Position numbers and translations under genes: made by a program
NCBI GenBank assembly: GCA_045837725.1
Contig: JBEWZL010000253.1
Coordinates: 186,001 to 250,000 of the forward strand
Direction of reading: 5' to 3'
DNA length: 64,000 nt
DNA from: Vermamoeba vermiformis
Taxonomy: Eukaryota
The notes under the pieces: model-generated
Database searches by the model: none
The model's input: the letters and a program-made list of their open reading frames with translations, nothing else
Told to the model about the DNA's origin: nothing
Shown here: positions 1 to 62,351 of the stretch, one piece after another
Numbering within the stretch: position 1 is the first letter of the stretch
How the letters are laid out: every line of letters starts with the position of its first letter

Positions 1-778
1 AATTCAAGCCCAGCTACGGCACCACACTCGTCACGGCCTGGGCCGAGGTGCACGGCTTTCCGATCGGCATCATCGCTAACAACGGGGTAAGTGGCGGGTG
101 TCGCGGTGGTGGTGCTATTTATAGCTGCAGACTGACACGCGTCACAGGTGATCTTCCCCGACACGGCGAACAAGGCCACGCAGTTCATCGAGATCTGCGA
201 GCGCCGCGTGATTCCGCTGCTGTATCTGCACAACATCACGGGGTTCATGGTGGGCAAGAAGTACGAGCACGAGGGCATCATCAAGCACGGCAGCAAGATG
301 ATCAACGCCGTCTCCAACTGCGAGCTGCCAGCGATCAGCATCATCATGGGGGCCTCGTACGGTGCAGGCAATTACGCCATGTGCGGCAGAGCTTACAACC
401 CGCGCTTCTTGTTCACGTGGCCCAACTCCAAGGTCGCAGTCATGGGTACGTAGCTGCAGTCACGTGCTGCACACTGCACATTATTGACACGTGTTATTTG
501 CAGGTTCGGATCAGCTGGCAGGTGTGATGGTGACCATTCAGCGCGATGCAGCGGAGAAGTCAGGCCGCAAGTTCAATGAAGAGGCTGCAGCACAGATGAG
601 CAAGATGTTCAAAGACAAAGTGGACAGTGAGACCACAGCCTATTACTGCACGAGCAGAATGATCGATGACGGCATTGTTGATCCACGTCAGACACGTGAC
701 ATCTTGGGTCTGTGCTTGTCGGTCATTTACACCAATGAGATCAAGCCGAGCGGCAGATATGGTCTGCATCGCATGTAG
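1..778 (+). CDS. Acyl-CoA carboxylase carboxyltransferase (beta) subunit, MCCase/geranyl-CoA carboxylase type; 3' part
   Basis: Exons <1-86, 148-~447, ~504-778 with GT-AG introns. Motifs [42 protein letters not shown]. Confidence 0.9.
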
Positions 779-1523
779 TTATCTGTATAGTAGTGTGTTT
801 GGAGCTAAGCTTGTGTTGGAAATAAAGACAGAGTTCAAACAGTATGAAATTCTAGTCTTTTAGTTGTTTTCATGAGCTGAGAAACTATGCTGCCTGCTGC
901 TGACGTGCTGTCCATTGGATGAATCCAGGCTCCACCATATGCCATCCATGGAGGTTCTTCTCAACAACATAGTAATTTCTTCTTGGTGGCCATTGAAATA
1001 CTGCAATTTTTGGTGGCACTCTTGAGATTCTTGGGGTATCAGGAGGGTTTTTGGATCGCTGAAAGAAGAATGGTATGAAGATTTTGAGCCTGTCCATGAC
1101 TGCACCAGCGACCCAAGCTACTGTGGCATTAGAAGGCTTTGGGCTAAACGCGAGAGGCTGAAAATGGCAATGTTCTGTAAAGAACTTAAGTACTAGAACT
1201 TTGTTCTATTGGCTGCAATACCATTGAAACTTTGGAATCACCTAGATCTATCACTATCTAACAAGAAAATATAAGTAATCATCAAAAATATTGTAGTGGC
1301 AGCAATTTGTAAATTTTCAGCATTAAGTATGAACCCACCCACCAGCACATGTTTGGTACAACACAACTATACGTATTTTATGCAACCCTGAACTTTGGCT
1401 ACAATGCATTGTCACCTGCCTATGAAAAAAAAATTGAATCATCTATACTTTTTTATGTTGTAACTTTGTCCAGTAGGGTGGCAAACCTTGTTATAATGAA
1501 AGGATATGCTTAATCATATACTT

Positions 1524-1697
1524 GGCATATAGAAATCTTGTTAAAATCTTCATACTATATGATGTATGGTCGGCGGACATGTGGTCCGTGGTGGACGTCC
1601 AATTTTTGCCGGACAGGCGTCCGCCAAATGTACGTGGCATAGAAATCTTATTACAGTCCATATGATGTATGGTTGGCAGATGTTTGGTCAGTGGTTG
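1524..1697. repeat. Degenerate direct duplication of about 65 bp in a CpG-poor non-coding tract
   Basis: ggcat(at)agaaatctt...atatgatgtatggt[c/t]ggc[g/a]ga at ~1524-1594 and ~1636-1697. Confidence 0.7.
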
Positions 1698-4043: not shown

Positions 4044-4149
4044 TTTGTTGATAAAAATAGAATTGCCTAATATAGTAAGTGCATCGCGGCTATCTCAGGG
4101 GTATTTATTCAAAATTGTTTAACTGTACAAAAAAAATAAGCGCAAAGAC

Positions 4150-5716
4150 TTATTTGCTGGTGGAATACACCACTGGTGCTCGCTTAGGATTGGCTGCCAG
4201 TGTTGGTGCAGGATTCGAATTGACAGGTGTCACATTGGATGTCGCACTGTTGTGGAATGGAGTGGACTGATACGACACGACACTCGGTGTGACAGGTGTC
4301 ACATTATTGGACTGCAGAGGTGTAGACTGATACGGCACGACACTCGGTGTGACAGGTGTCATATTCGGTGTCGCACTGAGAGTGGGACTGTTGGTGCGCA
4401 ATTGCACGCTGTTCGAGGTCGGAATCAGCTGGTAATTCGTGCCCGGATCTGCGCGTCGCTTGGTCATGCCAGGGGACAGCGCCACTTTGGGTGCGGAGTC
4501 AGTGGCACTGCGCGGTGGCATGGGTCCGAACATGTCTGGTGTGCGCGGCACGGGGGCAGTCACCACGCCGAGGGGCTGGGTGGGGCCTGTGTTGAGCTGC
4601 TGCGTGCCAGTGTAGGGCAGCACCGAGGGCGCGGCATTGGTCACCGTGCCAGTGTAGGGCAGCACCGAGGGCGCGGCATTGGTCACCGTGCCAGTGTAGG
4701 GCAGCACCGAGGGCGCGACAGAAGGTTGTGGCCGTGGTGTGAGTGCCGAGTGGGATGGACTGGTAGCTGTTCTCCAAGCGACGTTTGGGCGCGAGACTCG
4801 GTGAGCTGGCCGGGCCCGAGCTGAAGTCAGTGCTGAGCGTGGTGGTGCGATACTGCTCGGGATTGATGGCGCGACGTGAACTGCCCAGCTCGAACATCCA
4901 GCCACGTGTCGTGGAGTGGCGCGCATTGGGCCGCACTGTTTGACTCGTCCAGCCTGTGGCACTCGCTGCTTGTCTCTCTGCGGCGTCGTTGTGCTGCGTG
5001 TAGTACTCCTGCACGGGGTACTGTGCAGTGGAGGCGGTGTTAGCGTTCTGCGCGTAGGGCTCAGGCACGGGTTGATACTCGGGGGTGTCGCGCAGATTCG
5101 GTACGCTAAACGGACGTTTGTTGGTGGAGTTTGGTGACGATGAATATAATGCCTTCTTTTGGTTTTCTTCAAGACAAATATGAGCAAGTTATTCTTATCG
5201 CCAGACTGACAAGATCATACAGAAAGAAAAATTGATCAAAAAAAATAATATTGATTTTGGGATTTGTTTGTTGTCTAATCTAGTACAGTCGAGCTGTATG
5301 ATGCGTATTTATGCGAGAGACGTACCATCGGGAGTTAATTGACTGACTGACTCGTCTATAAATTCTACAACATCGCCAAGGTCTTGTACGACTCTCTTTA
5401 ACTAATCAAACTATTAATATGGTGATGCAATATACATGCAGCACATCGGTGAGTACTGAGAGTACAAAGTAGCATCTAGAACATTGGTAAAAATCATTCT
5501 TACCTGCGGGATCTGAGGCCCCTCTTCGAGAGCATATGTTTGCAAAAATGACAATTTCGCTCGCACTTCATGAATAAAGTTCAACCACTGCTTTAAATCA
5601 AATCTGTATTGTTCCTCAGGGGCAACAAATGGATTGTCTGTAAAATCCAGCTGGTGTTGAGCTTCATCGTGATCGACGTAATTGACGTCGAAATAAGGAG
5701 CAGGTGGAGAACTCAT
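4150..5716 (-). CDS. Uncharacterised protein with a Pro/Ser/Thr-rich repetitive C-terminus; model uncertain, with apparent frameshift(s)
   Basis: ATG 5716 (MSSPPAPYFDVNY), donor near 5503. The PEPYAQNAN frame (5068) switches to the PSVLPYTGT repeat frame near 4750. Stop at 4150. Confidence 0.5.
4265..4360. repeat. 60-bp coding duplication (NVTPVTPSVV.YQSTP)
   Basis: gactgatacg.cacgacactcggtgtgacaggtgtca at 4265 and 4325. Confidence 0.85.
4604..4717. repeat. 42-bp perfect tandem repeat, about 2.7 copies (APSVLPYTGTVTNA)
   Basis: gtgccagtgtagggcagcaccgagggcgcggcattggtcacc at 4604 and 4646, partial copy at 4688. Confidence 0.92.
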
Positions 5717-6180: not shown

Positions 6181-8409
6181 TTAATAGGAGAATATCTGGC
6201 CCCACCACTGATTCACAATCACATACAGCCCATTCGTGCGCAAATCCTTCGCCGAACGATAATACGTGATGCCTAAATATGGTCAATAAACACGCCTCCA
6301 CGCAGTACTCCGCAGCGTACCTGAGAAGAGTTCCGTGACCGGAATGGTGTCGTTGCCATTGACAGGTGTCGCATCACTCAAGATGACACGTCCCTCGCCC
6401 TGCGTGTCGCTGTAGTTCAGCACCACCACGCGCTTGTGTGCACTCGAGCTCCAGGTCCACGCCATCAAGCGCCACGCCGTGCTGGCACCAAACACGTTCT
6501 GATACCGCCACTGTCCTTGGAACACCTCGTGCGCGGTGATGGCCGTCAACTGCGCGTACATCTGTTGCACGGCACTCACGGCACTCTCGGGGGCTGCGCG
6601 TCTGTGGGGGGCACCTGTCAGTGTCACGTGTCACAGAGGGGTGCATTACCTTAAATGGACATCGAGTTTGTTGTGATAGCCCTCGCGCTGGCCCTGGAAG
6701 TAGAAGCGCATGCCTGGCAGCGTCATGGTCACCAGGGCTGCTGCGTCTGCGCGCCAGTTACTGCCAAAAAAGGAAGCGGCACGTGGCTCATCATGATTCT
6801 CCACAACTAGCTCGGAGATTAGTGCTATTTTTAGCTTTGCCAGTGACTTACAGCGCGCAGTGTGGTGGTGGTAGTCGATGGACAGGCCGGAGATGTAGCC
6901 GCGAATGTCATCGAGATTGCCTGCTGCCAAGCGATCGTACCTGCAAAGATGATGACACATGTCAAATAATTTGCTGCATGCAGTGACAGGTGTCACTTAC
7001 AGTGTCTTGTCGTAGGTGAAGTCAAAGCCATTGTTTTGCAACTCTTGCTATAAATGGGTATGGATTAGCGGACATTGCCTAATTAGGACAAGAAGCGTAC
7101 CGTCCAAGGATCGTAGACCTCCGCGAGAAATTTCACTTGCGGATACTGTTGCTTGACCTGCTGAATGGCACTGCGCCAGAACTCGCTGCTGGGCTGCGCA
7201 TAGCCCCAAGTGCCGAGTGTCCAGGCCCAGTTCGTGCTGATCTGCGAGTTGAGCAACAAGAACGCCATGTCGCAGCGAATGTAGTCTGCAAAGGATGCTA
7301 TTTTTAGCAGCACGTTGACTTGGTGCTTCACGAAATCAGGACTAAAGATGGTGTGAGTTACTCCGCTGATCTATTTTTAGCTACGTACTTCCAGTAGTTG
7401 AACTGTGCAGTGTCCCTAGTGAAATTTCACAGTCAGCGCGTGTTTCAAACATCAGTCACGTGATGTACAGCAAGTTACGTACGTCCAAGGCTGGCCCCAA
7501 CCAGGGCTGCCGAATGCAATGCCATTGGGCAAGTACTTGTTCGCGTCGTACGGCGGATTGGTGCCACGTGGTGCGCGCACGTACCTGCAAATGACACGTG
7601 TCAAATAATCGTACCTCCTCAAAGCCACAGCTTACCACTCCAAGTGCTGCGTCCAGTTGGAGTCGACAGCGGAGTGATTGGGCACAAAGTCGAGCATCAG
7701 CTGCAGTCCCACGCCGTGCAATGTCGTGCGCAGGCTGCTCAGATCTGCGTCGCTGCCCAACTCGCTGTTCGTCGTGTACTCGGTCACTGCGTAGGGGGAG
7801 CCTGCGCCTCTGTTAGCACATATAGTAATATAATATGTAATAATGATTAGGGAGGCAGTTTCAAGTACCGATAATGAGTAGGGAGGCATACCGATAATGT
7901 CAGCCATGGTGTAGCCTGGCAAGATCTGCGCGTAGGATTGCAACAAGCCTGGATCAGTGCGATCATGATTGAGTCCGTACTTGCCTATTAATACGTATCA
8001 TGAATCAATTACGAGTACTACAAGTAGGGTCCAGTCGTTGCACTGCGACAAACTAAGGTGTAACCATTTAATTTCCGCCTAGTGCAATCAACTTGGTCTG
8101 AAATTGCATGGGAATAGCACTAACAACGCATTTGAAAATTAAATACTACTAACCAAGCTGCCAGACACCCATCATCCACACAACGTCAAATCCAGAGCTC
8201 TTGATCGCTTTGAACTCTTGAAGGGGAATGTCTCTGAGACGCGAGATATTATAGCCATATTTTTGCGACAGTCCGTACAGCCAAGGACGAGTCGATATCT
8301 CGAACATGAGTGGGAACCGCACTGAGCCAGATTGACTTGCCTTGCTTGTCACTTGCACCGCGAGAAATGCCACAGCTAATAAGACGAGCACAGCTTTCAA
8401 GGTGTTCAT
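6181..8409 (-). CDS. Secreted alpha-amylase family (GH13) glycoside hydrolase, bacterial-like subfamily
   Basis: Signal peptide MNTLKAVLVLLAVAFLA. Motifs VWMMGVW, LMLDFVPNH, catalytic IRCDMA, FLAEVY, (spliced) FVENHDEPR. About 10 exons. Confidence 0.88.
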
Positions 8410-9358: not shown

Positions 9359-12300
9359 ATGGCCGATGTTAATAAAGAAGATAGAATACTGCAATATATT
9401 GGCACGAATAATCTTAAATGGGCCAGACAAGTGGATCGCAGTCAATTTTCAATTGAATATTACAACAGCGCCGTAATTGAAGAGCAAGTACCGATAGTAG
9501 TACGAGGGGTGGGTCATGCATTGGGTGCGGACAGAGAACGATTCAGTATCGCGTGGATGAAACAAAATATGGGCCAACAATTGATCGAAGTGCGAGATGT
9601 CACAAACAAGTCAGCTGATAATTGGAGCTTACAAACCTTTGTAGATTACACATCGAGGTAGGCGAGCAAGTTTTATAGAATTAAATTTAATTATGCGGTG
9701 TTTCCCACGCGGAATCCATTCTTTATGTTAAATAACTGACACTTTGACGCGTCGATAATTATCGCCACTCTCCAATCGTGCGCGGAAGTGTCTTATAATT
9801 AGATTCTGATCATTACAAGTACCAGCAAATTTATGAAAATCTTTGGGTCTAACGCCAAAATCTTTGAATAAATTTTGGTTTTTTGGACATCTCCGCAAAT
9901 CCGATCCAACGCTTTTTTGAACAACCGGTACTAGGACCTAGTTGTTATCAAGCAACGGTTCGTTTGTCCCATTGTTAATAATTTACCGATATGTCAGGTG
10001 TATTTACAATCTTTGTGCTATTTTTGGCCCTCAGGGGGCACGCAATTACACAGTGTTTTGGAATTACGATGGTTGCATAATTACTAATAATTGTCTCTAT
10101 ATAGCAATGACCCGTCCAAGGCATTTATTGGTCGATATCACGGCTGTCCTGAGAGCTGGGCCCAATCTCTCGTTCAACACGTGCCTGTCTGTCCCCTTCA
10201 AGGCGGAGATCTATTTGCCGACTTGCCAGAGTACGTATCTATATTTAGGACACCCTATTCGCGTTGTTCGCACTGCATTTGCGTCTCAATTCGTACAATG
10301 CGCAGAACCCGATCGAATTTACGTCAATTACTATGAACTTGCTGCGAAAATCAAAATTTTACTCGCAAAGATACAAAAAACAAAATGATATGAATTTATG
10401 TTTGTAAAAGCAATGTAATTGGTCATTAATTGTTTCAGAAACAGATCGAAATCCAGTTTTTGAAATTTTTAATCAAGAGGACACAATCAAATTAACTTCT
10501 AAATATAGACATCTACGCGCAGTCACTGTTGGATGCGATATTGAGCCAGAAGAGAGTCGCAGCTGCTTTCAGAACGCATGGTGTGGCGCGCTAATGCACT
10601 CGTTGATGATCCACGGCGAACAAGGCGCAGCGAGCTATTGGTTCATCATTCGCGTAAGTACAACGATTCGGCGTACATATATTGCAAATGGAACATTATT
10701 TGAACATTTGATCGTACCTTATCGGAGAGATCCGACAATTTAGATCCGCTCGGAAACTTCCTTATATGGAAAAATCAGAAAACCTATTAATTATATATGC
10801 AGCCTTCTGAGCGAGTTAAAGCTGAGAAAGCTATCAAATCACGTGGTCAGCTGCTCGTTCATGAAATGCCCTGGGTCGAGGTGTCTGAAATGACGCAATC
10901 TCCGTTCGAGATTGAAGTGATCCGCCAACAAGAAGGAGATCTGGTGCTGTTGCCCGCAGACAGCTACTATCAAACACTCACACTGCGCGGTCGTGCTGTC
11001 AAGGCGTGGTGGCACCGTGTCACTCCCAGCACCGTGCGCACATCGTTGCAAAGTTTGCACGTGATGCACAAGTTCTGCAGACCTGAGAAGTATCGGTAAG
11101 TGTTGTGCAGCACGCTGTTTGACACGTGTCACAAACTGACCCCAATGCAGTGTCAAGACGATGGCCTTTTTTGGACTGAATGCGCGCACGGAGCGGATCT
11201 TGAGTGGCAGCAACACGAGTGCGCACTTGAATGCCCTGGTGCGCGAGTGTCACGAACTGACGCAGCTGATTGAAGTGGTGAATGAACACTGCTCGGAGGA
11301 GTGGATCAGCGCCGATCACGTGACTGGACTCGTCTTGGAGCCCGTCAAAGTCGTCGAGCAACACACGCACTCGCGCACCTGTGCTTTTTGTGCCGCGGAC
11401 ATTTGGAACAGGTGAGGGCACTGCTATTTTTAGCATTCGTCATTCGGTGTTTGACACGTGTCATTTGCAGATGTTTTCACTGCGCGCGCTGTGCCCCCGT
11501 AGAGTACGACATTTGTTTGCAGTGCGTGGCTGAAGGACGCGGCTGCGTGCACAACACAGAACTCACGCTGCACGAGGCGCTGTCCATGCGACTGTGCAAG
11601 CACGTGATCGATCGATCGAGACTCGCACATCGCGAGCTGTTGGCGCGCATTGAACAGGGGGCTGCAGCTCAGCCCGGTCTGTTCCTCGACCTCGTGCCTA
11701 AATTCCAAATCAAGGTACTCGATTATTTCCATATATAGTAACCATACTGTGCGAAATCTCCTCGCAATAACTGGTGGTGATTCGAATTTATATGAAATTT
11801 AATTCTTCTGACTTGATTGCCAAACGCACCGTTATTTAAAGGACGTTATACCCAGCAGCCATATAGTATCTAAACTTTACCCGAAGATATCGATTTGCAT
11901 TATTCCTAATTTAGACAGATGGGACAAAAAAGATTTTTGGGCTCACAAAATCTTTGCAACATTTAAATCTCCCGTGGCCGCTGATACTGACGCTATTGTT
12001 ACCATCAGATGCCCGACCAATCCGAGCACTCGATTGCCACGGTGGCGTACAGCATGGTGCGACGCTATCACATCGACAAGGACGAGTGGTGCCACCAGTG
12101 CAAGCTGAAGAAACAAGTCGCGTTCATTGTCACCTGTCACAACGGTCGCTGCAGCAAACGATTCTGCGGCTACTGTTTGTGGAACCGCTACTGCCTGCGC
12201 CAAGTGGACATTGAGAAGATGAAGAACTGGAAGGTGCGTCCCTATCTATATCTTTATATCTATATCTATCTCTATACTTGCAGTACTGACTGTCCCCCAG

Positions 12301-13523
12301 TGCTTGGTGTGCAGTGGCATGTGCAACTGTGCGCGCTGCATGCGCAACAGATCTGAAGACTCGAACAACTTGCAGCTCAAATTCGACGATCCAGAACTCA
12401 GTGGCGACAAGGTACCACGTGACTTCTCGTCTAATTATAGCGCTAATCTCGCCCTTGCAGATTGTGGTGCCCAACTTCCTCAAAGAGAACAGCAAGGCAC
12501 GTGGTTCCATCTACGATCGCGAGCCTCGGCCCCGCGCCACCTCGGAGAAAGAGCGCCGCGCCATCTCCTCGCCCAATCTGCTCATCTCGTACCGCACCAA
12601 GCCCGCCATCTCTGATCGCTTGGCCTCACTCTCGCACGCCAAGGGCTCGCCGAGTGGCACTGGCAAAGCGTACCGCACGCGCTCCAAGGGCGATTTGACG
12701 GTGATTCTGAACGACAGCGACAGCGAGGTGGGCAACAACGACAACGACTACCAGGGCTGGTATCCGAGTGAGACCTCGTCCGTGGCCTCCAACGACTCGG
12801 CACGTGATCGCAGATCTGGTCGCCTCTCCACCACCCTCGATCTGACCGATGAACTCGACAGCGACAGCACCGATGAGAGTCGCAGTCCGACACCGCGGAG
12901 ATCGTTCCGAGCTCGCAAGCGCGGCAGTCGCACACTGGAGGGCGAGGAGATTGGGCCCGAGATCGTGATTCTGACGCCCTTCGCTGACTCGCAAGTGCCT
13001 GCTTCACCCTCCAGTTCACGCAAGCGCGCGCGATTGGGCAGCGGTAAGTCACGTGATTTGTTGCCAGTGTCAGTGCGTGACAGTTCTATTTTTAGTCGAC
13101 GAAGAGAACATCGAGGAGGTCGCGGCAGTGTTGCACTCGATACGCGATGTGACACCCACGCGTCAACGTGTCAAACAGGATGCCATGCAAATCGATGCCA
13201 GCGACGAGCCAGTATCTCCGATGAAGAGATTCAAGAGTGACAGCACACTGCTGCCAGGGCCAGTGAGTCACGTGGCGGTGCATCAACCAGGGCCCTCAGG
13301 CTCGGGCGAGTTGATCTCGCTGTTGAATCAGTTCAAAGAGTTGCAACCGCCCTCGGGCAATCACAATTGGCCTAATTTGGCAACTCCTTTCGGTGCACCA
13401 GTGCCACCACACATCATGTCACGTGACCCGTTCTTGAACAGCGGCAAAGAGAGTCCTTCGCCGCCCCCGACCACCAATGGCGAGCATCACGTGGACTTGC
13501 CGCCGTTCAAGAACTTGAATTGA
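9359..13523 (+). CDS. JmjC-like (degenerate) plus zinc-finger chromatin protein with zf-4CXXC_R1; CbfA/KDM3-like
   Basis: JmjC-type VPIVVRG and QQEGDLVLLP. Finger CAFC..CFHCARC..DICLQC. Finger CHQC..C..CSKRFCGYCL..WKCLVCSGMCNCARC. Disordered C-terminus. Confidence 0.75.
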
Positions 13524-13882: not shown

Positions 13883-16869
13883 ATGACTTCTCCCGCGAGA
13901 CAGTGGTTGAATATCACTCCTCATAAGATCTCGCTCGCTATTTTGATCAACACTTACGTGAATGACCCCGAATTAGATAATCAAACCAAATCCGAAGTCG
14001 GCTGGCTGCTAATTGATGAAATAACCGTATGAATACAGCACAAATATTATGTATATATTATTTTAATAATATTCATCGCTTAGAACTTGAATGAATTCCA
14101 CGAGAAGTCGTTAGATGCGCTCTTCCGAACCATCGAGCAGCTCAAGCCTGATGGAGAACTCGTCAAGCAGCGATTGTGGGGCATGGTACGTACACGATGA
14201 TAGCTCACCATACTGTGGCTCCCTAGCAATCTCTGATGTCTCTCAGCTGTCTCGCTTGCAGTCCCCTGATGATCTGCACGAATTTCTCGCAGGTAATTAG
14301 TCAATAGGACACATATAATATGCACAACATAAATAGCCCACAACAATACAATATGCACAATATATCCATCGCACATGCTGTACGACTGTGTACCGCCCTC
14401 ACTGACCACATCCACCAGCGATAGGCACGCTGTTAGAGCAGCAAGAAGATATCGCGCAGTCACCACTCGTAAGTCTAAAAATAGCATATCAATGTCCATA
14501 TATGGTGCTGACGCGTGACAGGATCGCGGCAGTGTGCTGGGACTATTTCTCCGCAAATTAATGATCAGTTTTCATGAATTGATGTTTGAGGCACTCGCGC
14601 GACTCTTTGACGACTTGACACTTTATCGTGACACCTGTCAAACACAGAACTCTGTTGATGATATCTCGCAGCACGTGCCACAGTTAAATATTCCGCTGTC
14701 ACCGCTCGAGTTTGAAACGTTCATTGAAAACGAAGCCCGCAATGTGGAACGTAAGAATATTTCCTAATTAGGCAATGAACTCGACTGACCATGCACGTCA
14801 GGGGCATTCGGACGACTCTCCGAAGCGGAAATTCAGCACTCCATTGCCCACATCAAGCGCAGCATGCCCAGCGCGTATCAGATCGAGTTCTTGACGTGCG
14901 TAGGGTGCACTTTCCTTATTTGGTAATAATAATCTTTGCAGATACATGAATGCAGTGGCACACGGCGATGTGAACTCCGCAATTGAATCTTTGCACGAAT
15001 ATTTCGATCGATCGCTGCCGACGAGTGCACTGACCGACACGGAGCGGCTAAATATAGGTCTCTTGCCCTACGCGTGTCTAAATTTGGCAAGTCTCTACCT
15101 CAAATTTGGGCAAGTCGATGATGGTCTGCAGGTACGTGCCACACCCGTGCACCACTGCATTTCCTAATTAGGCAAACAGTTGATGTACGAGACGATCTAT
15201 CTCGCGCAGGAGAGCAAAGACGAGGCGTGCATTGCGCGCGCACTGACGCTCATGCACAAACTGCTGCTCGCGAGCTCCAAGGGCGAGATACACAGTCTAT
15301 ATATGGTAACGTCGCATTTACCAGTGCCCAAATATGGTTATTAACGCTGACAGCTATTGCAACGACTCGTGAAACAAGCGCAACGCATCAACATGCCCGA
15401 TTTGGCAAGTGAAGAATTGATTTCGCTCGCCAGCAGTGATCTGCGCTTTCCTAAATTGGAATCACGCCTGCAATCCCTCACCGAGTCCGCTCTAAATTTA
15501 GTAAGTCAAATGCCGCACTCGCTCTCACACACGCTCTCTCATACTCACGCTTGCCAAATTAGGAAACACAGCCGCAGAGTGTGTGGCACCATCTGAACAG
15601 CGCTGCGAGCACAGTGACCAGTGCCGCGACAGGAGCTAAAAATAGCAGCGCGGTGCTTGACGAGATACTGGCCACTGTGTCCGAGGTGCGCGCTGACTCG
15701 TGGCACGTGTTCGGCAATGAGGACATGTCACGTGTCTTCAATCAGAACGCGCTCGACACGTGTTACGGACCTGACTCTGACACGTGTCAAACCACGGCCA
15801 GCAGCAATCTCGCGCTGTGCAAAGCAGCGCTGTCCTTGTCCGAGCAGGGCCAATCACGTGCTGCACTGCGTCTGCTGCTCGAGGCACGTGATCGATATCC
15901 GCTGTCACCTGTCAACAACACGTGGCTGATCTACGCGGGACGAGTGTTGTTCAACGATGCCCTAAATAGGTAAGTGGCACTCTGCCCCCTCACGCCCACT
16001 AACGTCGCGCAGAGGACAGCACGACAAGGCCAGCACAGTGTGCACGCGACTGTTGGCCCTCACACCGCACCAGGGCACCGCGCTGAGTGAGCACATTGAC
16101 ACGTGTCACCGACTCGCATCGCTGTATCTCGCGGTGGGAGATTTGACGCGCGCCAAACAGCTCATCACGCAACTCCTGGATTTGTGCTCGTCACGTGGTC
16201 TCGAACTGCAAAGTGTCAATCTGTTGGTGACACTCGCTGACATTCACCTGGCACGTGTCACCATTGCCTTATTTAGTACCAATGCGACTAACAATCGGTT
16301 CACAGAAATCAGGCTCGCACGTGACAGCACTGCCCCACGTGCTCAAAAGTCTGACACTGACCACGCAGTATCATCTCACCGCACTGCAAGTCATTGCAAC
16401 TATTCAGCTCGCGGAGATTCAATCTCGGCTGTTCAACGACACTCAGCGCGCGTGTCATTTGCTGGACTCGGTGCGCGTGTCACTGCCGCACTGTCCACTC
16501 GTGACACGTGTCAGAGCGCATTTGTTGCGTGTCACGTGTCAATTGCAGCACGACACTCCTGGTACGTCACGTGACAATGCTAAATATGGATTCTAACGTC
16601 TATTTTTAGATCTGAAGGCAGCAGTGACTAATTTGGAAAGTCTGGCAGCTGAATGTGCGCGTGGTGGCATGCTCGATTCACTGAAAGAGGTGTACTATCT
16701 GCTGGCACGTGTGCACCACGAACTCGATCAGACCGAAGCACGTGATCGCTGTGCCGCGCGGTTCAGTGAACTCGAACAGCAGTCACGTGCTCGCGTACCC
16801 TGCACGCACGTGTATTATCTGAACAGCGAATCGATCGAACTGGAGCTCGCACAGCTGCCACGGATGTGA
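13883..16869 (+). CDS. ANAPC5: Anaphase-promoting complex subunit 5
   Basis: N-terminal ITPHKISLAILI, SVLGLFLRK, AIESLHEYFD, YACLNLASL followed by TPR-like helices. Many short introns. Confidence 0.85.
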
Positions 16870-16967
16870 TTGCCTTATTTGGCAAGTGTTCTCGATGTAC
16901 AGCGGAATTATGAATGTAAATTAGCAATGGACTTTACCTATTTCGTCTTTTATTCCTAATTTGGACA

Positions 16968-18084: not shown

Positions 18085-18201
18085 ATTGATTGATATTAAT
18101 ATACAGTTGTGGTTGCACTTGTCGGCAGCTGTTAACAACTGAATCCGCTCTTCATCTCAACATTTTATTTTTCACGCGACCGATTAACAACAGCTAGTCT
18201 A

Positions 18202-18773: not shown

Positions 18774-18950
18774 TACTGCTAGTAGAACATTATGTTAATA
18801 AACACCAGTTATGTACAAAGAGGTTTATTGCAGGTCACATCCGCTACAAAACTGCTCAATCTGAGCTACGATGGCAACAAACTGCAAGTAATGACAATGA
18901 GGTGATAAACGAAGACTACTAAAGAGATATATACAAGCTGGCAATCAGCG

Positions 18951-20894
18951 TTAGATGTGGTGCGTGCGACAGAACTCTTCAATGCGATTGCAGGCCTCGG
19001 TGAGCACATCCAGGGGCGCGCAGGTGACCAGTCGAATGTAGTTCTTCATTCTGAACGCTTGACCTGGCAGCACTGCGAGCGACTGTTCGCGCAACAGCTC
19101 GAGTGCGAAGGCCATGTCGTCCGCAATGTCTCTGAACTGCGGCAGCTCAATGCCGATCATCATGTACATGGCTCCCTTGGGTGCGATGCAGCGCAGACCA
19201 GGCACGTGACTCAATCTCGACACGAGATATTCCGCTTGTGTCTTCAGCTTCGTGTTCGTCTCGGCGTAGAACTCGGCGGGAGTGTCGCGCAGAATGTGTG
19301 GCAGAGCACCCTGTTTGACACGTGTCAAATGCAGCCCTCCAAGTACTGTGACACGTGACTTACCTGCACCACAGAGTTCGCACCTAAAATGGTCGTGGAC
19401 AGTGCGAGCAGACCAGTGCGCACGTGACCGAACACGCCGATCGGGTCGTGGATGAGAATCCAGCCCACGCGCCAGCCCGGCACGAGCCACTGCTTGGCAA
19501 TGCCACTGACTGACAGCACGGGCACGTGACTCGCGAGCAGTGCAGCGGGCACGAAGGCGTCAGTCTCGAACACCATGCCACCGTAGATTTCATCGGCGAT
19601 CACGGGCAAGTGATGTTTGGCTGCGAGACTGCAAATGACAGGTGTCAATCCGAGTACAGCACAGCACAGCTCAGTACGTACTTGAGTATGTCGCGGAGGT
19701 GATCACGTGACCAGACAGAGCCGCAGGGATTGGACGGATTGTTGATGAGCAGTGCACGTGTCTTGCGATCGATCTTTGCCTCCAGCGCCGACAGATCTGC
19801 CTGCCACTCCTGCTCGGGCAACAACGGATAGCCGCGGGGTTCAATACCTGTTTCATGAACGACGTGTCAGTGGACTGACAGGTGTCACAGCCGCACCTGC
19901 GCACGTACCCTTGCTGTCGAGCAGTGTCTGGTAGAGCGAGAAGCCTGGCACGGGAATGAGCACGTTGTCGCCCTCATTGGCCAGCACGCCCAAACACATC
20001 TCCAGCGCGTGACTGGCGCCAGAAGTGATGATCACGTCCTCGCTCGTGTACTGCACGGCACCGTGTCTGTTCTGCACCGAGTACTGCTGCGCCACTGCGG
20101 CACGGGTCTCGGGATAGCCGCACGAGTGGGGATAGCCGTCGTACTTGCCACTCTCTAGTGCCTCGCACAGGGCTGTGGTGACTGCGGGGGATTTGGGGAG
20201 ATTGCCAAATACGGTAGGGTCACCTGATCGATCGGATTAGCTGCGTGTACTGGTGCAAGTAAAAGACGATCGAGATCTACTCGCGTGGATTAAATGGTGG
20301 ATTGATGCGAGTCAACCTCAGCATATTAAAATCAATGCATAATATGATAATATTGGATATTCAAATTTGTAATTGGGATCGCATCCGAAACGGATCGAAG
20401 ATTCGGATCCGAAACTTTCTCCGACAATTCAAATCAGATATGACAGTGCAATGTTTGTGTTATTGTTAATCATAGTGCTCTAGTCACAATTATATAGCTC
20501 GTACTCGTTTCAGCGATCAAAAAGTATCGTATTAAATATTTCAGCTTAGGTTTTTGTATTTTAAGGCTGCAATTTCAATCCTTATATGCACATATTTAAT
20601 TTCAATTATGTAACAGCTTGGCAGAGCTAAATAATGCATAGAAAATAGTTTGCTGAAGAGACACATTTTGATCGAGAACAAAATTCTAATCAGCAATGCA
20701 ATGACTGCTTTGAATGTAGTATAAGACGTGCGATACATACCAATAGAGAGCTGTAGACGTGGTTTAGCGGCATTGATTGGAATATTGAGCTGATCGACGA
20801 TCTTGCGGATGGGATTGCTGGTACGCTGCGCAATGATGGACGAGTTGATTGGCGCCCAAGTGCGCGAAGTAGATTGATCGGCTTGATGTGACAT
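18951..20894 (-). CDS. TAT: Tyrosine aminotransferase
   Basis: TSNPIRKIVD, LSIGDPTVFGN, VIITSGAS, NNPSNPCG, IADEIY, PLP lysine motif GIAKQWLVPGWRVGW. Confidence 0.93.
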
Positions 20895-42941: not shown

Positions 42942-44638
42942 ATGAGGATCGTACGCCATGTTATATATTTATTTATCATATATACCCTATTATCAAATTG
43001 TACAGTAACCGCTGACGACACACCCAAGAAGTTTTTACGTTTTAACCCAGATGGCACGTTCAAGATATTGCAAGTGAGTAATAAAATATTTTTGATATTT
43101 AATAATCGTTTTCCATCGTACGCGTGACTAGTACAGACGGTGGAACAATTTAATGTTAATTAAATTAAATATTTTATTTTCTAGTTCACGGATCTGCACT
43201 ACGGAGAAAATGACGCGTGGGACGAACAAACGGAGTTATTACAAGAGGAAATTTTAAATGCAGAAAAACCGGATCTTGTTGTAATCACTGGCGACATGAT
43301 TTCAGGTTACGCTTATCGAGGTGCGTAATGTAATAGTAGCTAGCTATTGCCGGGCATAATATTGCTGCAAATATTTCAGTTGCTGACGTCATCGATCAGG
43401 CGGCAGTGAGTGGGTGAAGGGGCACTATGAGAAGCTGTTGCGACCCATGATCAAGCTCGGCTATCGCTGGGCCATGGTGCTCGGCAATCACGACGGCGAG
43501 GCTGACTGGCACCGCGCTAAAATCGCTGAATTTGACGCAGGCCACGCACTCAGCTTGACACAGATTGGGCCTGAGAACATCACTGGTGTCACCAACTTTG
43601 TGTATTCGATCTACTCGTCCAAATCACTCGGTAGGTGTTCAACTGCACTTTCTTAATGCAAGCGTGCAATGCTGACCAGGTGTGGCAGGTGAGATCTCAG
43701 CGCGCTTGTACTTCTTTGACTCGAATGCGGTCTCGTGTTTTGGTGTCAAGGGCTGGGGCTGCGTGTACCCCACACAAGTAAGAGCGTGATATATGATAGA
43801 TAGTTGCTAGTATAGCATACGAATTGAAGATTTTATCGTTTCCGCAAGTCGCTGATTGACGCGCCAATGTTCACAGATCGAGTGGTATCGTCGTACCGCA
43901 CAAATGTTCAAGCAACAAGACGGACATCACGCCAAGCCAGCCATGGCCTTTCAACACATCCCTATTCCCGAGTACATGGAGCTGTGGAACTATCATATGA
44001 CTTACGGTACATTGCAAGACGAAGGTAGGCTGATGAGTGCCACACTCGTGAGAGCCAGACTTTGACACGTGTCACTAGGTATTTGTTGTGCAGCCCTCAA
44101 CACAGGTCTCTACGCGGCCATGAAAGAAATGAATGATATCAAAGCACTGTGGGTCGGACACGATCACAAGAATGACTTCTACGGTGATTTTTACGGCATC
44201 ACACTGGGCTACGGACGCAAGACTGGTTATGGCGGCTATGGACCAGCCATTGGTGGGTGACAATAGACTGCAAAAGTAGACAGCATTTGACCTTTGATGT
44301 AGGTACCGCGCGTGGTGCACGAGTGATCATATTGAAAGAAGAGCCATTCAGCTACGAGACCTACATTCGCGAAGAGGGCGGTGGCGTGGACAAACAAGGC
44401 GCGCACAATGCAGGCTATCCGCACTACTACACGTGCTGCTCGAAGGGAGATCGTAAGTGGACCATTGTCTTTGGATGTGCAGCACTCACACCACACAGGC
44501 TATTGGGTCGTATTGAATCGCACCGTGGTGATCACATTGACCATCACAGTCATGTTCTGGTGGATTGTGATGGGTGCAGTCATGATCTTCATTTCAAAGC
44601 GAAAGAAGAACAAGATGAAGAGTGCCAAGTCAATATGA
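42942..44638 (+). CDS. Calcineurin-like metallophosphoesterase (PAP29/DCR2-like) with signal peptide and C-terminal TM
   Basis: FKILQFTDLHYGE, TGDMISG, GNHD, FQHIPIPE, GHDHKND, YGRKTGYGGY. Confidence 0.9.
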
Positions 44639-56650: not shown

Positions 56651-56850
56651 AGAAGTTTCTCCGCCTTCTATTGTATCACGAATAAAGTGGTGACTTTGTT
56701 GTAGAATTATTATTTATCTTCATATTACAAATACATTAATAGAAGTGCCACACGATAGTTTGTGGTTTTGGTGTGTGTGTTTTTTTTGTGGGTTTTAAAA
56801 TTTTTTTTTTTGGTTTTTTGGTTTTCCGGCTCACCAGAAACTACGCGAGA

Positions 56851-59025: not shown

Positions 59026-60640
59026 TTACAACGGCCAATTTTGACGCTTCAAGCACATATCCCAAAACATGTATTCCATTTTCATTGCAGTTTTGAAATA
59101 ATCGAGCATGCGTTCTCTTTCTCCTGGAGGTAGCGTTACTGACACTTTGTCCATGAATGCGCGCAGTTTGGAGACCGAGGAGGTGAATTCATTGCCGCAA
59201 TAATACTCGATCCATGTTGCGTAGGTGTCTTTAGCTTGATTGTCGTGCAAATAATGACCAATCTTATTATACAGCAAGAAGCAGGCCAACACTGATGCGA
59301 GACCAACATAGTACGGCTGTTCTCTCGTGACAGTGGTCAAGAACGACAAATAAAGTTGGTTGTTGGGCGCGAGTTGTGTGTTGAGAAAACTGTCCGTAAT
59401 CTTCTTGTAACTGCTCGAGAGGTGCGTAATCATGTCTTTTTCATTCGATCCCGCTTCTAATATCTCGCTCAGTTCTTTTCTGAGCGATGCAGGAGTTTTT
59501 GATACGATCACTGACAGCCGGTCGTCGAAAGTGTTCAAGAACTGCCGGTCTTGTTCGAGAAAGAACTGAAAGCTCTCTTTGGGCAGAGTGCCGTCTAGAA
59601 TGCCCTGCACGAAACCATGAGCTCTGATCGTTTCGTACAGGTGCAGCGAGTGGGTCCAAAGGTACTCGGTGACTGGTTCAGGATGTCTCAGTAGTGGCCG
59701 ACACGAGGTGTGCCAGAAGTGATTTAGAGGACCGTGGCCGTGTCCGACATTCAGTTCATCAGCTCGTTGAATCGCTCCTGCCACGTATTCATGCGCTTGT
59801 TTCACCGCATCCACAATGCTCATGCCCTAGGTTGTGCGTAAGCCTTGATTGAATTTTAGTCGCAGATACTTACTTGTGCGACAAACGCAGCTATTGCAGA
59901 GCTGAAAGTGCATCCACTGCCGTGCGTGTTTTTGGATTCGACTTTTGGGCTTGTAAACTCATGAAACGTGACCCCATCGTATAGTACGTCAGTTAGTGTT
60001 GTATGTCCTTCTAAATGACCTCCTTTAATCTAATTTCCATTAGATGAAATGCATGGCGAAGGGCGTTCCTACCAACACGTTGCGGGATCCAAAATCTTTT
60101 TGTATCTTCGTTGCTGCTTGCTTCATGGTTGGAATATCAGTGATTTTAATGTTCGTGATGAACTCAGCTTCTGGAATGTTCGGAGTTAATAGCGTGACGT
60201 ATTTAAGGTTGGTTTTCAGCTCGATCTAAAAAAAGTATTCGAATTAATTGCAATTTAAAGCTGCAGCGCATATTTACAATGGAGCTCGGTTCCAGCAAGA
60301 TAGACCCTCCTTTGGCAGTCATGACTGGATCCAAAACGATGGGAATATTTGTATCCTTGATCTGATCGAATACCGCCGAAATAGTTTCAGATGTGTGCAG
60401 CATTCCAATCTTGATGCAATCGGTCCTTATGTCGTCAATAACTACTTTAATTTGCTCGCGAATATGTTGTGGAGGAATGTCAAATACCGAAGATACACCA
60501 AGCGTATTTTGCGCAGTAATTGCAGTAATGACGGATGTGGCAAACACGCCCAGCGCAGAGATTGTCTTAATATCCGCTTGAATACCAGCTCCACCGCCAG
60601 AATCAGATCCAGCAATCGTTAAACAGGTAAAGCAAGACAT
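59026..60640 (-). CDS. THI20: HMP/HMP-P kinase (ThiD) - thiaminase II (TenA) fusion, THI20-like
   Basis: LTIAGSDSGGGAGIQAD, LDPVM, TPNIPEA, THGSGC, GHGPLNHF. TenA: FLEQD, LACFLLY, EYMFWD. 3 introns. Confidence 0.93.
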
Positions 60641-60802
60641 TTTGCAAAATGTGAGAGAGGATTTCTCGAATTACTTTTGCTGCAATTTATTGTTAAATAG
60701 TATTTCGAATGAGTTCAGTCTGAACTCACTGCACGGAAAATTTCATTGACAACGTGACAAGTTCTGCAACAAATTTTCTCAATACCTTTCGTCAGATCGA
60801 GG
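60641..60802. promoter_or_regulatory. Probable bidirectional promoter with central 9-1-9 inverted repeat
   Basis: 162 bp between divergent ATGs. TGAGTTCAG-T-CTGAACTCA at 60710-60728. Confidence 0.6.
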
Positions 60803-62351
60803 ATGCTACCACTTGCAAAATGCTTATCAAAAAGATTAGGAAATTATGCAAAAAGAAGTTACAGCACTCACTCCAAGTATGGTGTATATTTGATTTTTGA
60901 AGACAAAATTGCGGATGTGCCGCCTAAAATTGCCATCAATCAAGCCGTAGCAGGAAGTGCGACAATGGTTCAAATACGCGAGAAAAAAAAATCGACAAGC
61001 GAATTTATCAAAGAAGCAAGAGAAATCAAAGCTCTGCTACGTGGCAGCAATGTGCCGTTGATCATAAATGACCGGGTTGATGTGGCCTTGGCATGTGATG
61101 CGGACGGCGTGCATGTTGGACAAACGGACATGGAGGTCAAAGATGCGCGAAGAATATTAGGCCCGAATAAGATCGTTGGCTGCACCGTCAGCACACCTTA
61201 TCAAGCCAAGCTGGCGCTGTTTCAAGGAGCAGACTATCTGGTACGTCGCTGATAGCACTGTTTGCTGACTCAGCAACTCATATTCATATTAGGGCACTGA
61301 CGCTATATTTCCAACCGCAACGAAGCCCGACAGCAAGCCACTCGGCCTCGCAGCGTTCAAGGATATCTGCGCCTCTACTTCTTTGCCTGTTGTGGCTATT
61401 GGCAGTGTTAATCGAAACAACGCGCAATCGTGTCTCGATGCTGGTGCTGCTGGACTTGCAGCGTGTGCCAGTATTTTGGATTCGAGAGTGAATGGTGGTT
61501 CGATCACAGAGGCTTGCAAAGAATTGCATCGGCTGGTGGACCTCTCGCAGCCAAAGTACTCGGACGAGCTTGCACGTGTGGCAGCGGAGGTGATTAGCGC
61601 GGTGAGAATGAAGCATCCACTGATCGTGCACATCACTAATACTGTCACGATCAACGACGTTGCAAATGTCACTTTGCTGTGTGGTGCTTCGCCGGTCATG
61701 GCACAAGAGAACAATGAAATGGTCGAACTAGCCGACGCACTGGTACTCAATATGGGCACGCTGGACAACAATCAAATCGATGTTATGATCAGCTGTGGCC
61801 GCGTAGCCAACAAGCGAGGAATTCCCGTTGTGTTTGACCCTGTTGGTGCTGGTGCTACACCGTATCGAACAGCAGCAGCAAAGCGCATATTGGACAGCAT
61901 TCATGTCGATGTTTTGCGCGGAAACGCCTCTGAGATAGCAGCACTTGCAGATTTACCTGCGAGCACACGTGGGGTTGATTCAGGAATTGTACAGAACAAA
62001 CAAGCAGCACTCAAAGCTCTTGCTTCAACAGATCGAATAGTTATTATGACTGGCAAACACGACTTGCTCAGTGATGGACAGGTAGTCTATGAAGTCCACA
62101 ATAATAGTGCTTGGCTTCAAACTGTTACTGGCACTGGCTGCATGCTCACAGCTGTTCTTGGTGCTTTTTCAACTGTTGGTCAATACTCAAGATTGAACAC
62201 TTCTGCTGCTGCATTATCCTATTTTGCAGCAGCTGCAGAGAGAGCTGAATCTTGCAAACCAAATGGTCCTGCAAGCTTCAAGCAACTCTTTTTTGATGCT
62301 TTGGCTGAGGGAGGATCAGACTTTAAAATATTGTGTTCAAACCTCAAATAA
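60803..62351 (+). CDS. THI6: Thiamine-phosphate synthase (ThiE) - hydroxyethylthiazole kinase (ThiM) fusion, THI6-like, with presequence-like N-terminus
   Basis: VQIREK, LIINDRVDVA, GVHVGQ. ThiM: HITNTV, NMGTL, DPVGAGAT, RGNASEI, TGTGC. Intron 61241-~61291. Confidence 0.93.

What the first reader, a model, noticed from the sequence alone, without database searches (positions are those of the whole stretch)
87..61291. Intron branch points are embedded in TGAC-based palindromes
Seen: in many short introns the YTGAC branch-like sequence just upstream of the AG is the left arm of a palindrome. Examples are ctgacacgcgtcacAG (147), ttgacacgtgtcatttgcAG (11470, and minus strand near 7586), ttgacacgtgtcaaacAG (minus ~19311), ttgacacctgtcatttgcAG (minus ~19630), 22875, 39619 and 44063. 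Variants also occur: TGACGTCA (43384), TGACTCA (56333) and TTGCTGACTCAGCAA (61262-61276). Inference: the branch site may double as a DNA-binding site or RNA hairpin, or a symmetric motif may seed new introns on either strand.
Basis: partly seen in the sequence, partly recalled or inferred. Interest (0 to 1): 0.7.

Follow-up and report, generated by a model that had tools for sequence, protein, structure and literature searches.

The report
Conserved E-box palindromes inside short introns
In a group of neighbouring genes of this unidentified eukaryote, many of the roughly 55-base introns carry a conserved CACGTG-centred palindrome whose left arm often doubles as the likely branch site, so a second, still unproven function seems to be layered on the splicing signals.

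Summary
TGACACGTGTCA-like words occur 47 times against about 4 expected. RNA data confirm several host introns. In 11 of the 16 dyad-bearing short introns, the last branch-like YTRAY word is the dyad's left arm. In 10 it is the only such word.

The element is not a branch-site feature as such. Its core is the E-box CACGTG, within TG(A/T)CA-SS-TG(A/T)CA. It also sits directly after the donor, in mid-intron upstream of a separate CTGAC, and in exons at 43 sites against 18 expected from synonymous shuffles. It is confined to certain genes, all left of about 25 kb, and nearly absent from unassigned sequence.

In a related species, dyad positions in orthologous introns are 85% identical. Other intron positions are 42% identical.

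I read it as a separately selected palindromic element that short introns pack against their splice signals. It is most likely a binding site for a dimeric protein. An RNA-level role is the main rival. Introner origin is unlikely. The CRE, AP-1 and MARE "variants" occur at chance frequency.

The parts
133..144 (+). Dyad TGACACGCGTCA in predicted intron 87-147. Its CTGAC is the only YTRAY, 12 nt from the 3' end.
   Evidence: intron predicted, not RNA-confirmed (outside the laid stretch)
485..496 (+). Dyad TGACACGTGTTA in predicted intron 446-503, with its branch-like arm 16 nt from the 3' end. A second CACGTG lies at 461-466 in the same intron.
6953..6995 (-). Two dyads in predicted intron 6941-7000. 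6984-6995 lies directly after the donor (sense GTAAG-TGACACCTGTCA). 6953-6964 lies at the branch position. Both are largely kept in the L007 orthologue.
7585..7604 (-). Exact 20-mer TTGACACGTGTCATTTGCAG ending RNA-confirmed intron 7585-7635. TTGAC is the only YTRAY. The 20-mer is 100% kept in L007 while the rest of the intron is unalignable.
11120..11131 (+). Dyad in mid-intron of RNA-confirmed intron 11096-11150. A separate CTGAC lies 11 nt from the 3' end.
11451..11470 (+). Exact 20-mer ending RNA-confirmed intron 11412-11470. TTGAC is the only YTRAY.
12416..12421 (+). CACGTG overlapping the donor (GTACCACGTG) of RNA-confirmed intron 12412-12460. The branch-like CTAAT lies downstream.
13050..13055 (+). 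CACGTG directly after the donor (GTAAGT-CACGTG) of RNA-confirmed intron 13044-13095.
19316..19360 (-). Two elements in predicted intron 19311-19363: a donor-adjacent E-box and a branch-position dyad (sense TTGACACGTGTCAAACAG). In the predicted RNA fold the two copies pair.
19636..19647 (-). Dyad (sense TTGACACCTGTCA) at the branch position of predicted intron 19629-19681.
19876..19887 (-). Dyad in mid-intron of predicted intron 19848-19908. A separate CTGAC lies downstream.
22875..22886 (+). Dyad at the branch position of predicted intron 22837-22897.
23614..23641 (+). RNA-confirmed intron 23606-23656 carries CACGTG near the donor and the dyad-like TGACACGTGTCT. Separate CTAAC and CTGAC words lie downstream.
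23748..23759 (+). Dyad near the 5' end of predicted intron 23733-23789. A separate CTGAC lies 12 nt from the 3' end.
39619..39630 (-). Dyad at the branch position of predicted intron 39611-39670, in the oxidosqualene-cyclase-like gene. It is one of only two motif introns right of 25 kb.
44063..44074 (+). Dyad in predicted intron 44025-44093. Its TTGAC is the only YTRAY, 28 nt from the 3' end.
15700..16870 (+). Probable TPR-protein gene with about 19 CACGTG sites. The exonic ones I read fall in all three reading frames. Neighbour spacing is mostly 23-36 nt.
4221..4361 (-). Three tandem units, each with sense GTGACACCTGTCA, in the last exon or 3' part of a minus-strand transcript.

Best explanation
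What is there is a conserved dyad element, TG(A/T)CA-SS-TG(A/T)CA. Its commonest form is (T)TGACACGTGTCA(C), an extended E-box. It is selected for in its own right and lives in the transcribed part of a subset of genes.

Introns here are only about 45-70 nt, so the element is packed against the splice signals. Near the 3' end, its sense-strand arm (T)TGAC(AC) fits the organism's YTRAY branch consensus and is used as the branch site. Next to the 5' end, the donor's last GT supplies the GT-CACGTG flank. Where the element lies elsewhere, the intron has an ordinary CTGAC, CTAAC or CTAAT branch word. Splicing therefore does not need the palindrome.

I think the element is most likely the binding site of a dimeric, sequence-specific protein on DNA, of E-box or bHLH type. 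Its paired sites sit 23-36 bp apart and mark or regulate particular genes from inside the gene body.

Shown: enrichment, intron context, gene specificity, conservation.
Inferred: branch-site use, protein binding, any effect on expression.
For: Enrichment:
- 47 matches against 3.97 expected.
- CACGTG is the top 6-mer, 174 against 50 with both strands counted.
- CACGTG per kb: short introns 4.76, exons 1.88, long introns 0.24, unassigned 0.65.
- Of 21 GWCACGTGWC sites, 12 are in short introns, 7 in exons, 1 in a long intron and 1 unassigned.

Core rather than arm:
- All 28 exact-arm dyads found by the SS-restricted scan have centre CG (15), CC/GG (11) or GC (2).
- Both TGACA and TGTCA arms occur.

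Independence from the branch site:
- 6 of 16 dyad introns have another YTRAY downstream.
- 7 of 9 RNA-confirmed short introns carry CACGTG, at varied positions.

Selection:
- Against the orthologue L007, intronic dyad positions are 39/46 identical and other intron positions 82/194. Splice signals are 46/53 and exons 557/667.
- Against the same-species contigs L010 and L011, there are 0 changes in 133 intronic motif positions and 22 in 378 other intron positions (P=0.002).

DNA-type features:
- The element is dyad-symmetric and is a classical E-box.
- Neighbouring CACGTG sites prefer a spacing of 22-35 nt: 13 pairs against 5.2 expected (P=0.004).
- The same introns hold other classical dimer-site look-alikes, TTnCC(W6)GGnAA and GCTA(W4)TAGC. 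By my reading of the listed instances, their flanks do not co-vary as a hairpin would require.

Gene specificity:
- 18 CACGTG sites in 1684 nt of short intron in genes left of 25.4 kb, against 2 in 2009 nt to the right.
- Exons of the same genes hold 43 against 18.3 in synonymous shuffles, and 0 of 500 shuffles reach 43.
- The relatives' loci show the same pattern.
Against: - No binding protein is shown.
- The extended element is essentially absent from promoters and other unassigned DNA (1 of 21 sites, and that one lies in an ORF). This is unusual for a transcription-factor site and fits an RNA-level role better.
- Orientation depends on the transcribed strand. The T flank (TTGAC) is on the sense side in 9 of 12 intron dyads (antisense side in 1) and on the antisense side in 6 of 10 exon dyads (sense side in 1) (P=0.004). 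The CACCTG form is on the sense strand in 8 of 9 sites. Avoidance of cryptic CAG|GT donors could explain the latter.
- Exonic E-box positions are no better conserved than other exon positions (23/32 against 557/667).
- The MADS-like blocks are not conserved in L007 (14/30).
- The E-box-rich genes share no functional theme.
- The sample is one 64-kb window plus about 35 kb of relatives that were found through the motif itself.
- Most introns come from my own gene model.
- The MAFFT alignment may favour conserved words.
Confidence: 0.4

Rival explanations
1. The element works at the RNA level. The self-complementary 10-14-mer acts in the pre-mRNA. Two copies in one transcript, or in two, would pair and hide or present the branch site and the 5' splice site, so tuning splicing of particular genes. 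Alternatively, an RNA-binding protein reads it.
For: - The element is confined to transcribed sequence and nearly absent from unassigned DNA.
- Its orientation follows the transcribed strand.
- Copies abut the donor and the branch site.
- A 12-mer duplex is predicted at -19.3 kcal/mol.
- In the two-copy introns 19311, 23606 and L004:720 the predicted fold pairs copy with copy, with z of -3.0, -1.1 and -2.8.
- Motif introns fold slightly better than the others (mean z -0.57 against 0.03, P=0.04).
Against: - A single copy gives only a 4-bp hairpin of -2.1 kcal/mol. Most motif introns have one copy.
- In the L007 orthologue of intron 6941-7000, the 3' copy has lost its right arm, so the copy-to-copy duplex is not kept.
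- No spacing under 18 nt is seen, although shorter loops would be more stable.
- The centre is restricted to S-S, which a loop would not require.
- The better folding is expected from any palindrome.
Confidence: 0.25
2. The element is only a branch site. TTGACAC is simply a strong branch sequence. The CAC after the branch A could extend pairing with the conserved GUAGUA-region of U2; this U2 pairing is recalled, not tested. On this view the right half is part of the spacer and pyrimidine stretch, and the palindrome is incidental.
For: - YTGAC is the commonest branch-like word, with 48 sense occurrences in 78 introns.
- 10 dyad introns have no other YTRAY.
- The T flank is on the sense side in intron dyads.
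- The whole 20-mer, including TTTGCAG, is conserved.
Against: - It does not explain dyads directly after the donor or in mid-intron with a separate branch word (6 of 16 introns).
- It does not explain the TGTCA-armed forms or the exonic excess.
- It does not explain the 100% conserved donor-adjacent dyad in intron 6941-7000.
- It does not explain the gene specificity: plain CTAAC and CTGAC introns dominate right of 25 kb.
Confidence: 0.12
3. The dyads are relics of mobile introns: what remains of the terminal inverted repeats of an introner or MITE family that created these introns.
For: - The same 20-26-nt blocks recur in unrelated introns on both strands.
- Some introns carry a copy at each end (6941, 19311).
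- The 20-mer was found in 11 metagenome loci and in none of the prokaryote or viral collections.
Against: - Outside the motif blocks, the introns share no similarity.
- No target-site duplications or longer family members were seen.
- The six introns compared occupy the same positions in a species about 15% diverged in exons. There the dyads are conserved while the rest is scrambled, which indicates selection and not recent insertion.
- The element is also enriched in exons.
Confidence: 0.08
4. The pattern is due to chance or base composition.
For: - The CRE, AP-1 and MARE 'variants' are at chance frequency.
- Distance pile-ups are not significant after correction.
Against: - 47 matches against 3.97 expected, and no shuffle above 12.
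- GC3 and intron GC are similar in motif-rich and motif-poor genes.
- The element is conserved across species.
Confidence: 0.02

Closest known systems
Short-intron branch-site consensus YTRAY / CTRAY. The fission-yeast and fungal consensus is recalled. The extended GACTGACG box of Ostreococcus comes from earlier finding e1-567831, which I did not check.
   Same: Sense-strand CTGAC, TTGAC, CTAAC and CTAAT lie 9-21 nt before the 3' splice site in most of the 78 short introns.
   Different: Here a subset of branch words is fused to a reverse-complement arm around CACGTG. No branch-site consensus that I know of includes this.
E-box / G-box sites (CACGTG) of bHLH and bZIP proteins. GACACGTGTC is used as a G-box/ABRE-type word in plant papers (search listing only).
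   Same: The palindromic CACGTG core, symmetric flanks, homotypic clusters and gene specificity.
   Different: Classical sites lie in promoters and enhancers. This element lies in exons and short introns and is almost absent from unassigned DNA. No factor is known for this organism.
12-bp dimer sites of TALE homeodomain proteins, TGACAG(C/G)TGTCA (MEIS/PKNOX/TGIF SELEX motifs; recalled, not checked in any call).
   Same: TGACA arms, a 2-bp G/C centre and an extra 5' T. The variants TGACAGCTGTCA and TGACACCTGTCA occur here.
   Different: The CG centre dominates (15 of 28). Bare CACGTG with other flanks is also enriched, and TGTCA-first arms occur.
Introner elements and internally symmetrical (stw)introns of Hypoxylaceae (PMC8469720, abstract read).
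   Same: Shared sequence among introns at unrelated positions, and inverted symmetry inside introns.
   Different: Those have 45-55-nt terminal inverted repeats and near-identical full-length copies of recent origin. Here only 12-26-nt blocks are shared and the introns are old.
Complementary intron segments that bring the 5' splice site and branch site together in budding-yeast introns (recalled), and short inverted repeats that promote circular RNA (PMC4201285, listing abstract only).
   Same: Two-copy introns are predicted to pair a donor-side copy with a branch-side copy.
   Different: Those act in long introns or need 30-40-nt repeats. Here the introns are about 55 nt, most hold one copy, and the pairing is not conserved in L007.

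Membership tests
Spliceosomal branch site (YTRAY) | Sense-strand consensus word at a fixed short distance upstream of the 3' splice site. | tested here: met
   In 11 of 16 dyad introns the last YTRAY is the dyad arm, 10-28 nt from the 3' end. Other introns show 9-21 nt. The words are strongly sense-biased.
Spliceosomal branch site (YTRAY) | The adenosine is the mapped lariat branch point. | not testable with these tools
   The single read-laying run printed no lariat-type joints, and 36 of 51 joints were not shown.
E-box transcription-factor site | Palindromic CANNTG core with conserved symmetric flanks, more frequent than chance. | tested here: met
E-box transcription-factor site | Location in promoters or enhancers and binding by a bHLH/bZIP protein. 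| tested here: inconclusive
   1 of 21 extended sites lies in unassigned DNA. No binding data exist, and transcription start sites are unknown.
Introner / MITE-derived introns | Full-length sequence similarity among many introns. | tested here: not met
   An all-against-all comparison of the 78 short introns finds only motif blocks of 26 nt or less.
Introner / MITE-derived introns | Recent, lineage-specific insertion with target-site duplication. | tested here: not met
   The six introns compared are shared with L007. No duplications were seen. Only one gene was compared.
Structured RNA element (hairpin) | A stable fold and compensatory changes. | tested here: inconclusive
   A single copy folds at -2.1 kcal/mol. 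Two-copy introns fold well. There are too few variants to test covariation. Arm variants such as TGTCACGTGTCA are not compensated.

The most novel reading that the evidence does not exclude
The same 12-20 bases are read twice. As RNA, they form the branch-site and 3' module, or the donor flank, of a minimal intron. As a palindrome, on DNA or as an RNA duplex, they form a gene-body code that marks a specific set of genes. This would couple a sequence-specific factor directly to splice-site use. Intron signals and a regulatory dyad would then have co-evolved into one conserved composite element. Such an arrangement did not turn up in my literature searches.
Probability: 0.2. Interest if true: 0.8.

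Novelty: new variant of a known kind. Interest (0 to 1): 0.55.

Why it matters
Introns of 50-60 nt are usually thought to hold nothing beyond their splice signals. Here about a quarter of them (23 of 78) hold an extra element. In the one gene that could be compared, that element is as conserved as the splice signals themselves. It overlaps the branch site or donor, and it is restricted to certain genes.

If confirmed genome-wide, this would be a tractable case of overlapping codes, splicing plus a palindromic recognition site. It would also offer a way to ask how regulatory information is housed in minimal introns.

It bears on annotation too. In this lineage, TTGACACGTGTCA should be accepted as a branch-site context, and E-box density separates two classes of genes.

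Tried and rejected
- Whole genome: none is held.
- Indexed runs: no RNA holder is listed. Three raw-read RNA runs of the same species label and one contig run were laid instead. Only 15 of 51 joints were printed, and the cap prevents a second lay.
- Gene model: the first versions over-predicted, with 250-407 introns, and were discarded. The final list drops one predicted intron (12234-12460) that RNA joints contradict. It misses at least one intron (6807-6851) seen.
- Rfam and tRNA scans of the window: nothing.
- Earlier findings of this scan: nothing on this genome or on relatives. One note on an Ostreococcus branch box.
- The 20-mer in prokaryote genomes and viral contigs: 0 hits each.
- Literature: searches found no paper describing this palindrome in introns.
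- Fixed-distance test: the largest pile-up is 4 of 27 against a null mean of 2.8 (P=0.13). The window of 8-14 nt from the 3' end holds 7 against 4.4 (P=0.14). The single-position P=0.004 for +7 is post hoc.
- The pooled positions include relatives' introns that were found through the 20-mer itself, so their 3' distances are biased. I do not use them.
- Functional theme among E-box-rich genes: none. The set includes a carboxyltransferase, alpha-amylase family, TPR, aminotransferase, peptidase, p115, Myb, PP2A-A-like HEAT and DENN proteins.
- Organism: not identified. One ORF's best named relative is a Physarum transcript at 34% identity. I guessed a free-living amoeba and read genome statistics in PMC7125106 (passages). 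Neither confirms nor excludes the guess.
- One search failed because one reference was in the wrong frame. It was re-sent without that reference.

Full report
**What the window is.**
The window is nuclear DNA of an unidentified eukaryote with GC-rich codons, AT-richer spacers and many short GT-AG introns. No whole genome is held. Pfam matches on single exons show ordinary housekeeping genes:
- carboxyltransferase of the methylcrotonyl-CoA carboxylase type;
- Rpc34;
- an alpha-amylase-family enzyme;
- a TPR protein;
- a class I/II aminotransferase;
- TFIIF-beta;
- a family-4 glycosyltransferase;
- inositol polyphosphate kinase;
- a squalene/oxidosqualene-cyclase-like protein;
- a papain-like protease;
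- a TENA/THI-4 protein.

**Introns.**
I laid three RNA raw-read runs and one contig run on 4001-24000. The raw-read runs carry the same species label and are 95-99% alike. The output printed 15 of 51 joints, and all 15 have GT..AG ends once the cut shifts are applied.
- Nine of these introns are 49-67 nt and six are 102-447 nt.
- For the rest of the window I wrote a simple Viterbi exon/intron model, using codon log-odds plus donor and acceptor matrices trained on the 15 introns.
- Early versions over-predicted and were discarded. The final one recovers 8-10 of the 15.
- Merged with the RNA joints, and after dropping one prediction that the joints contradict, it gives 78 introns of 100 nt or less (4620 nt in all). 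Nine of them are RNA-confirmed.
- This model is imperfect. It missed at least intron 6807-6851, and region 16471-16609 is ambiguous.

**The observation.**
- TGACACGTGTCA with up to two mismatches occurs 47 times, against 3.97 expected (largest shuffle 12). Twelve matches are exact.
- TTGACACGTGTCATTTGCAG occurs twice exactly, once on each strand, each time ending an RNA-confirmed intron. Five further copies have 1-3 mismatches.
- CACGTG is the most over-represented hexamer and TGACACGT the most over-represented octamer.

**Branch words.**
On the sense strand of the 78 short introns, branch-like words are frequent and strongly strand-biased. They are concentrated in the last 35 nt:

| Sense word | Count | Antisense word | Count |
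|---|---|---|---|
| CTGAC | 24 | GTCAG | 3 |
| TTGAC | 24 | GTCAA | 8 |
| CTAAC | 15 | GTTAG | 2 |
| CTAAT | 17 | ATTAG | 7 |

YTRAY, mostly YTGAC, is therefore the likely branch consensus.
- Sixteen short introns carry a dyad, defined as TGACA-NN-TGTCA with at most one arm mismatch.
- In 11 of them, the last YTRAY before the 3' splice site is the dyad's left arm. In 10 it is the only YTRAY.
- If those arms were not counted, 10 of 16 dyad introns would lack any branch word, against 14 of 62 other introns (P=0.005).

**Why this is not a branch-site feature as such.**
1. In 6 of 16 dyad introns the dyad lies near the 5' end or in mid-intron, and a separate CTGAC or CTAAC lies downstream. These include the RNA-confirmed introns 11096-11150 and 23606-23656.
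2. CACGTG also sits directly after the donor, as GTAAGT-CACGTG, GTGAGT-CACGTG or GTACGT-CACGTG. It does so in four window introns and in one intron of a relative.
3. The arms can be TGTCA as well as TGACA. The exact-arm scan, which required a G/C centre, found 28 dyads with centre CG, CC/GG or GC. A looser listing shows one further exact-arm dyad with a CA centre. The invariant part is thus an E-box with TGW flanks.
4. Exons of the same genes are enriched too, with 43 CACGTG against 18.3 (sd 3.0) in shuffles that keep each gene's protein and codon pool. In the examples I read, they fall in all three frames.
5. Fixed-distance pile-ups are not significant once the choice of position is allowed for (P about 0.13).

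**Where it is and is not.**
- CACGTG per kb is 4.76 in short introns, 1.88 in exons, 0.24 in long introns and 0.65 in unassigned sequence.
- Of the 21 sites of the extended form GWCACGTGWC, 12 are in short introns, 7 in exons, 1 in a long intron and 1 in unassigned sequence. That last one lies in an open frame continuing the TPR gene.
- The element is gene-specific. Genes left of about 25.4 kb have 18 CACGTG in 1684 nt of short intron. Genes to the right have 2 in 2009 nt (P=5e-5). GC3 and intron GC are similar in both sets.
- The Rpc34 gene in the left part has none.
- In relative locus L004, one gene holds 8 of the 11 sites, the other 3 lie just beside it, and its neighbour gene has none.
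- Neighbouring sites prefer a spacing of 22-35 nt: 13 pairs against 5.2 (P=0.004).

**Relatives and conservation.**
A metagenome scan for the 20-mer found 11 loci.
- L010 and L011 are 98% identical to the window. L007 is the orthologue of 6665-8399 from a related species, at 72-78% identity.
- Several other loci show the same kind of introns.
- In the alignment of the alpha-amylase-family gene, all six introns compared are at the same positions in both species.
- The 20-mer of intron 7585-7635 and the donor-adjacent dyad of intron 6941-7000 are identical in both species. The rest of those introns cannot be aligned.
- Identity by class:

| Class | Identical / total | % |
|---|---|---|
| Intronic dyad positions | 39/46 | 85 |
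| Splice-signal positions | 46/53 | 87 |
| Exons | 557/667 | 84 |
| Other intron positions | 82/194 | 42 |

  The alignment may favour conserved words.
- Not all copies are kept. The CACGTG of intron 7416-7482 is absent in L007.
- Exonic E-box positions are no better conserved than other exon positions (23/32).
- Between the window and L010/L011, intronic motif positions show 0 changes in 133. Other intron positions show 22 in 378 (P=0.002). Thirteen of the 22 lie in one microsatellite-like intron.

**Other palindromic blocks.**
The same introns often hold TTnCC(W6)GGnAA and GCTA(W4)TAGC blocks, which look like SRF/Mcm1-type and MEF2/Rlm1-type sites. Those names are recalled and come from no call.
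- C[CT]W6[AG]G occurs 16 times in short introns of the left-hand genes and 0 times in those of the right-hand genes.
- Some copies lie just upstream of predicted gene starts, and some overlap donors.
- They are not conserved in L007 (14/30). Part of their excess may be 3' splice-site-like sequence.

**Reading.**
The dyad is selected in its own right, and tiny introns pack it against their splice signals.
- I favour a protein-binding site on DNA (0.4). The reasons are the classical E-box dyad form, the restricted S-S centre, the preferred spacing, the co-occurring dimer-site look-alikes without compensating flanks, and the gene specificity.
- The strongest counter-evidence is its near-absence from non-transcribed DNA and its strand-dependent orientation. 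These keep an RNA-level role alive (0.25).
- For the RNA-level role: a 12-mer duplex is strong (-19.3 kcal/mol), and two-copy introns are predicted to pair copy with copy. But single copies fold weakly, and the pairing is not kept in L007.
- A pure branch-site explanation (0.12) fails on the non-branch copies and on the exons.
- An introner origin (0.08) fails on the lack of similarity outside the blocks and on the age of the introns.
- The CRE, AP-1 and MARE 'variants' are at chance frequency in the window. CTGACGTCAT does recur twice in one relative locus.

**Literature.**
Four full-text searches found no description of this palindrome in introns.
- The nearest items are plant G-box/ABRE uses of GACACGTGTC (listing only).
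- Symmetrical stwintrons of Hypoxylaceae are also close (PMC8469720, abstract read). They differ in size, copy identity and age.
- I could not see supplements of any paper, and none bears on the claims.

Noticed in passing
window 34998-36413 (-): An intron-less ORF of 471 aa with no Pfam hit at E<=0.01 in my scan. Its database relatives all carry PF26128 (Gabija anti-defence 2 family). The protein atlas places it with eukaryotic (fungal) and phage Gad2 clusters. Its best named relative is a Physarum transcript at 34% identity.
   Followed up: partly
window 3921, 7078, 14914, 15163, 15554, 17063, 17374, 21860-21890, 22773 and others: Blocks of 14-17 nt of the form TTnCC(W6)GGnAA and GCTA(W4)TAGC recur in short introns. 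Some lie just upstream of predicted starts, and four overlap donors in the same register (CCW6G|GT). 28 of 33 CC(W6)GG sites lie left of 24 kb.
   Followed up: partly
window 5240-8173 and 9735-12565 versus L010 and L011: Short-intron positions outside motifs differ at 5.8% between the window and 98%-identical contigs. Unassigned DNA and long introns differ at about 1.1%, and exons at 0.5%. Much of the intron excess comes from one microsatellite-like intron (12234-12300).
   Followed up: partly
window 4208-4372 and 4603-4728: Two tandem arrays lie in the 3' part of a minus-strand transcript: three units of about 60-69 nt, each with a dyad, and three 42-nt units. RNA reads of the related strain break off or join elsewhere at 4262, 4301 and 4302, which suggests a structural difference there.
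   Followed up: no
window 2700-2830 and 56780-56830: Long runs of C, T, A and G homopolymers look like low-quality long-read assembly and not biology.
   Followed up: no
L010, L011: Two low-coverage contigs filed under a human oral metagenome are 98% identical to the window. The organism, or its DNA, turns up in unrelated data sets, as also suggested by many differently labelled runs that hold 16-31% of the sampled words.
   Followed up: no
window 6980, 11132, 11452, 22873: Contigs of run X6 stop matching the window exactly at or beside dyads and continue with unrelated sequence. One continuation itself contains TGACAGCTGTCA (table 7). The cause could be strain differences, paralogues or template switching at palindromes.
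   Followed up: no
window 9658-10104, 10231-10508, 10654-10802, 11715-12008: A second class of AT-rich long introns (149-447 nt, RNA-confirmed) carries no CACGTG. Three of them lie in the 5' part of the transcript that starts near 9235.
   Followed up: no
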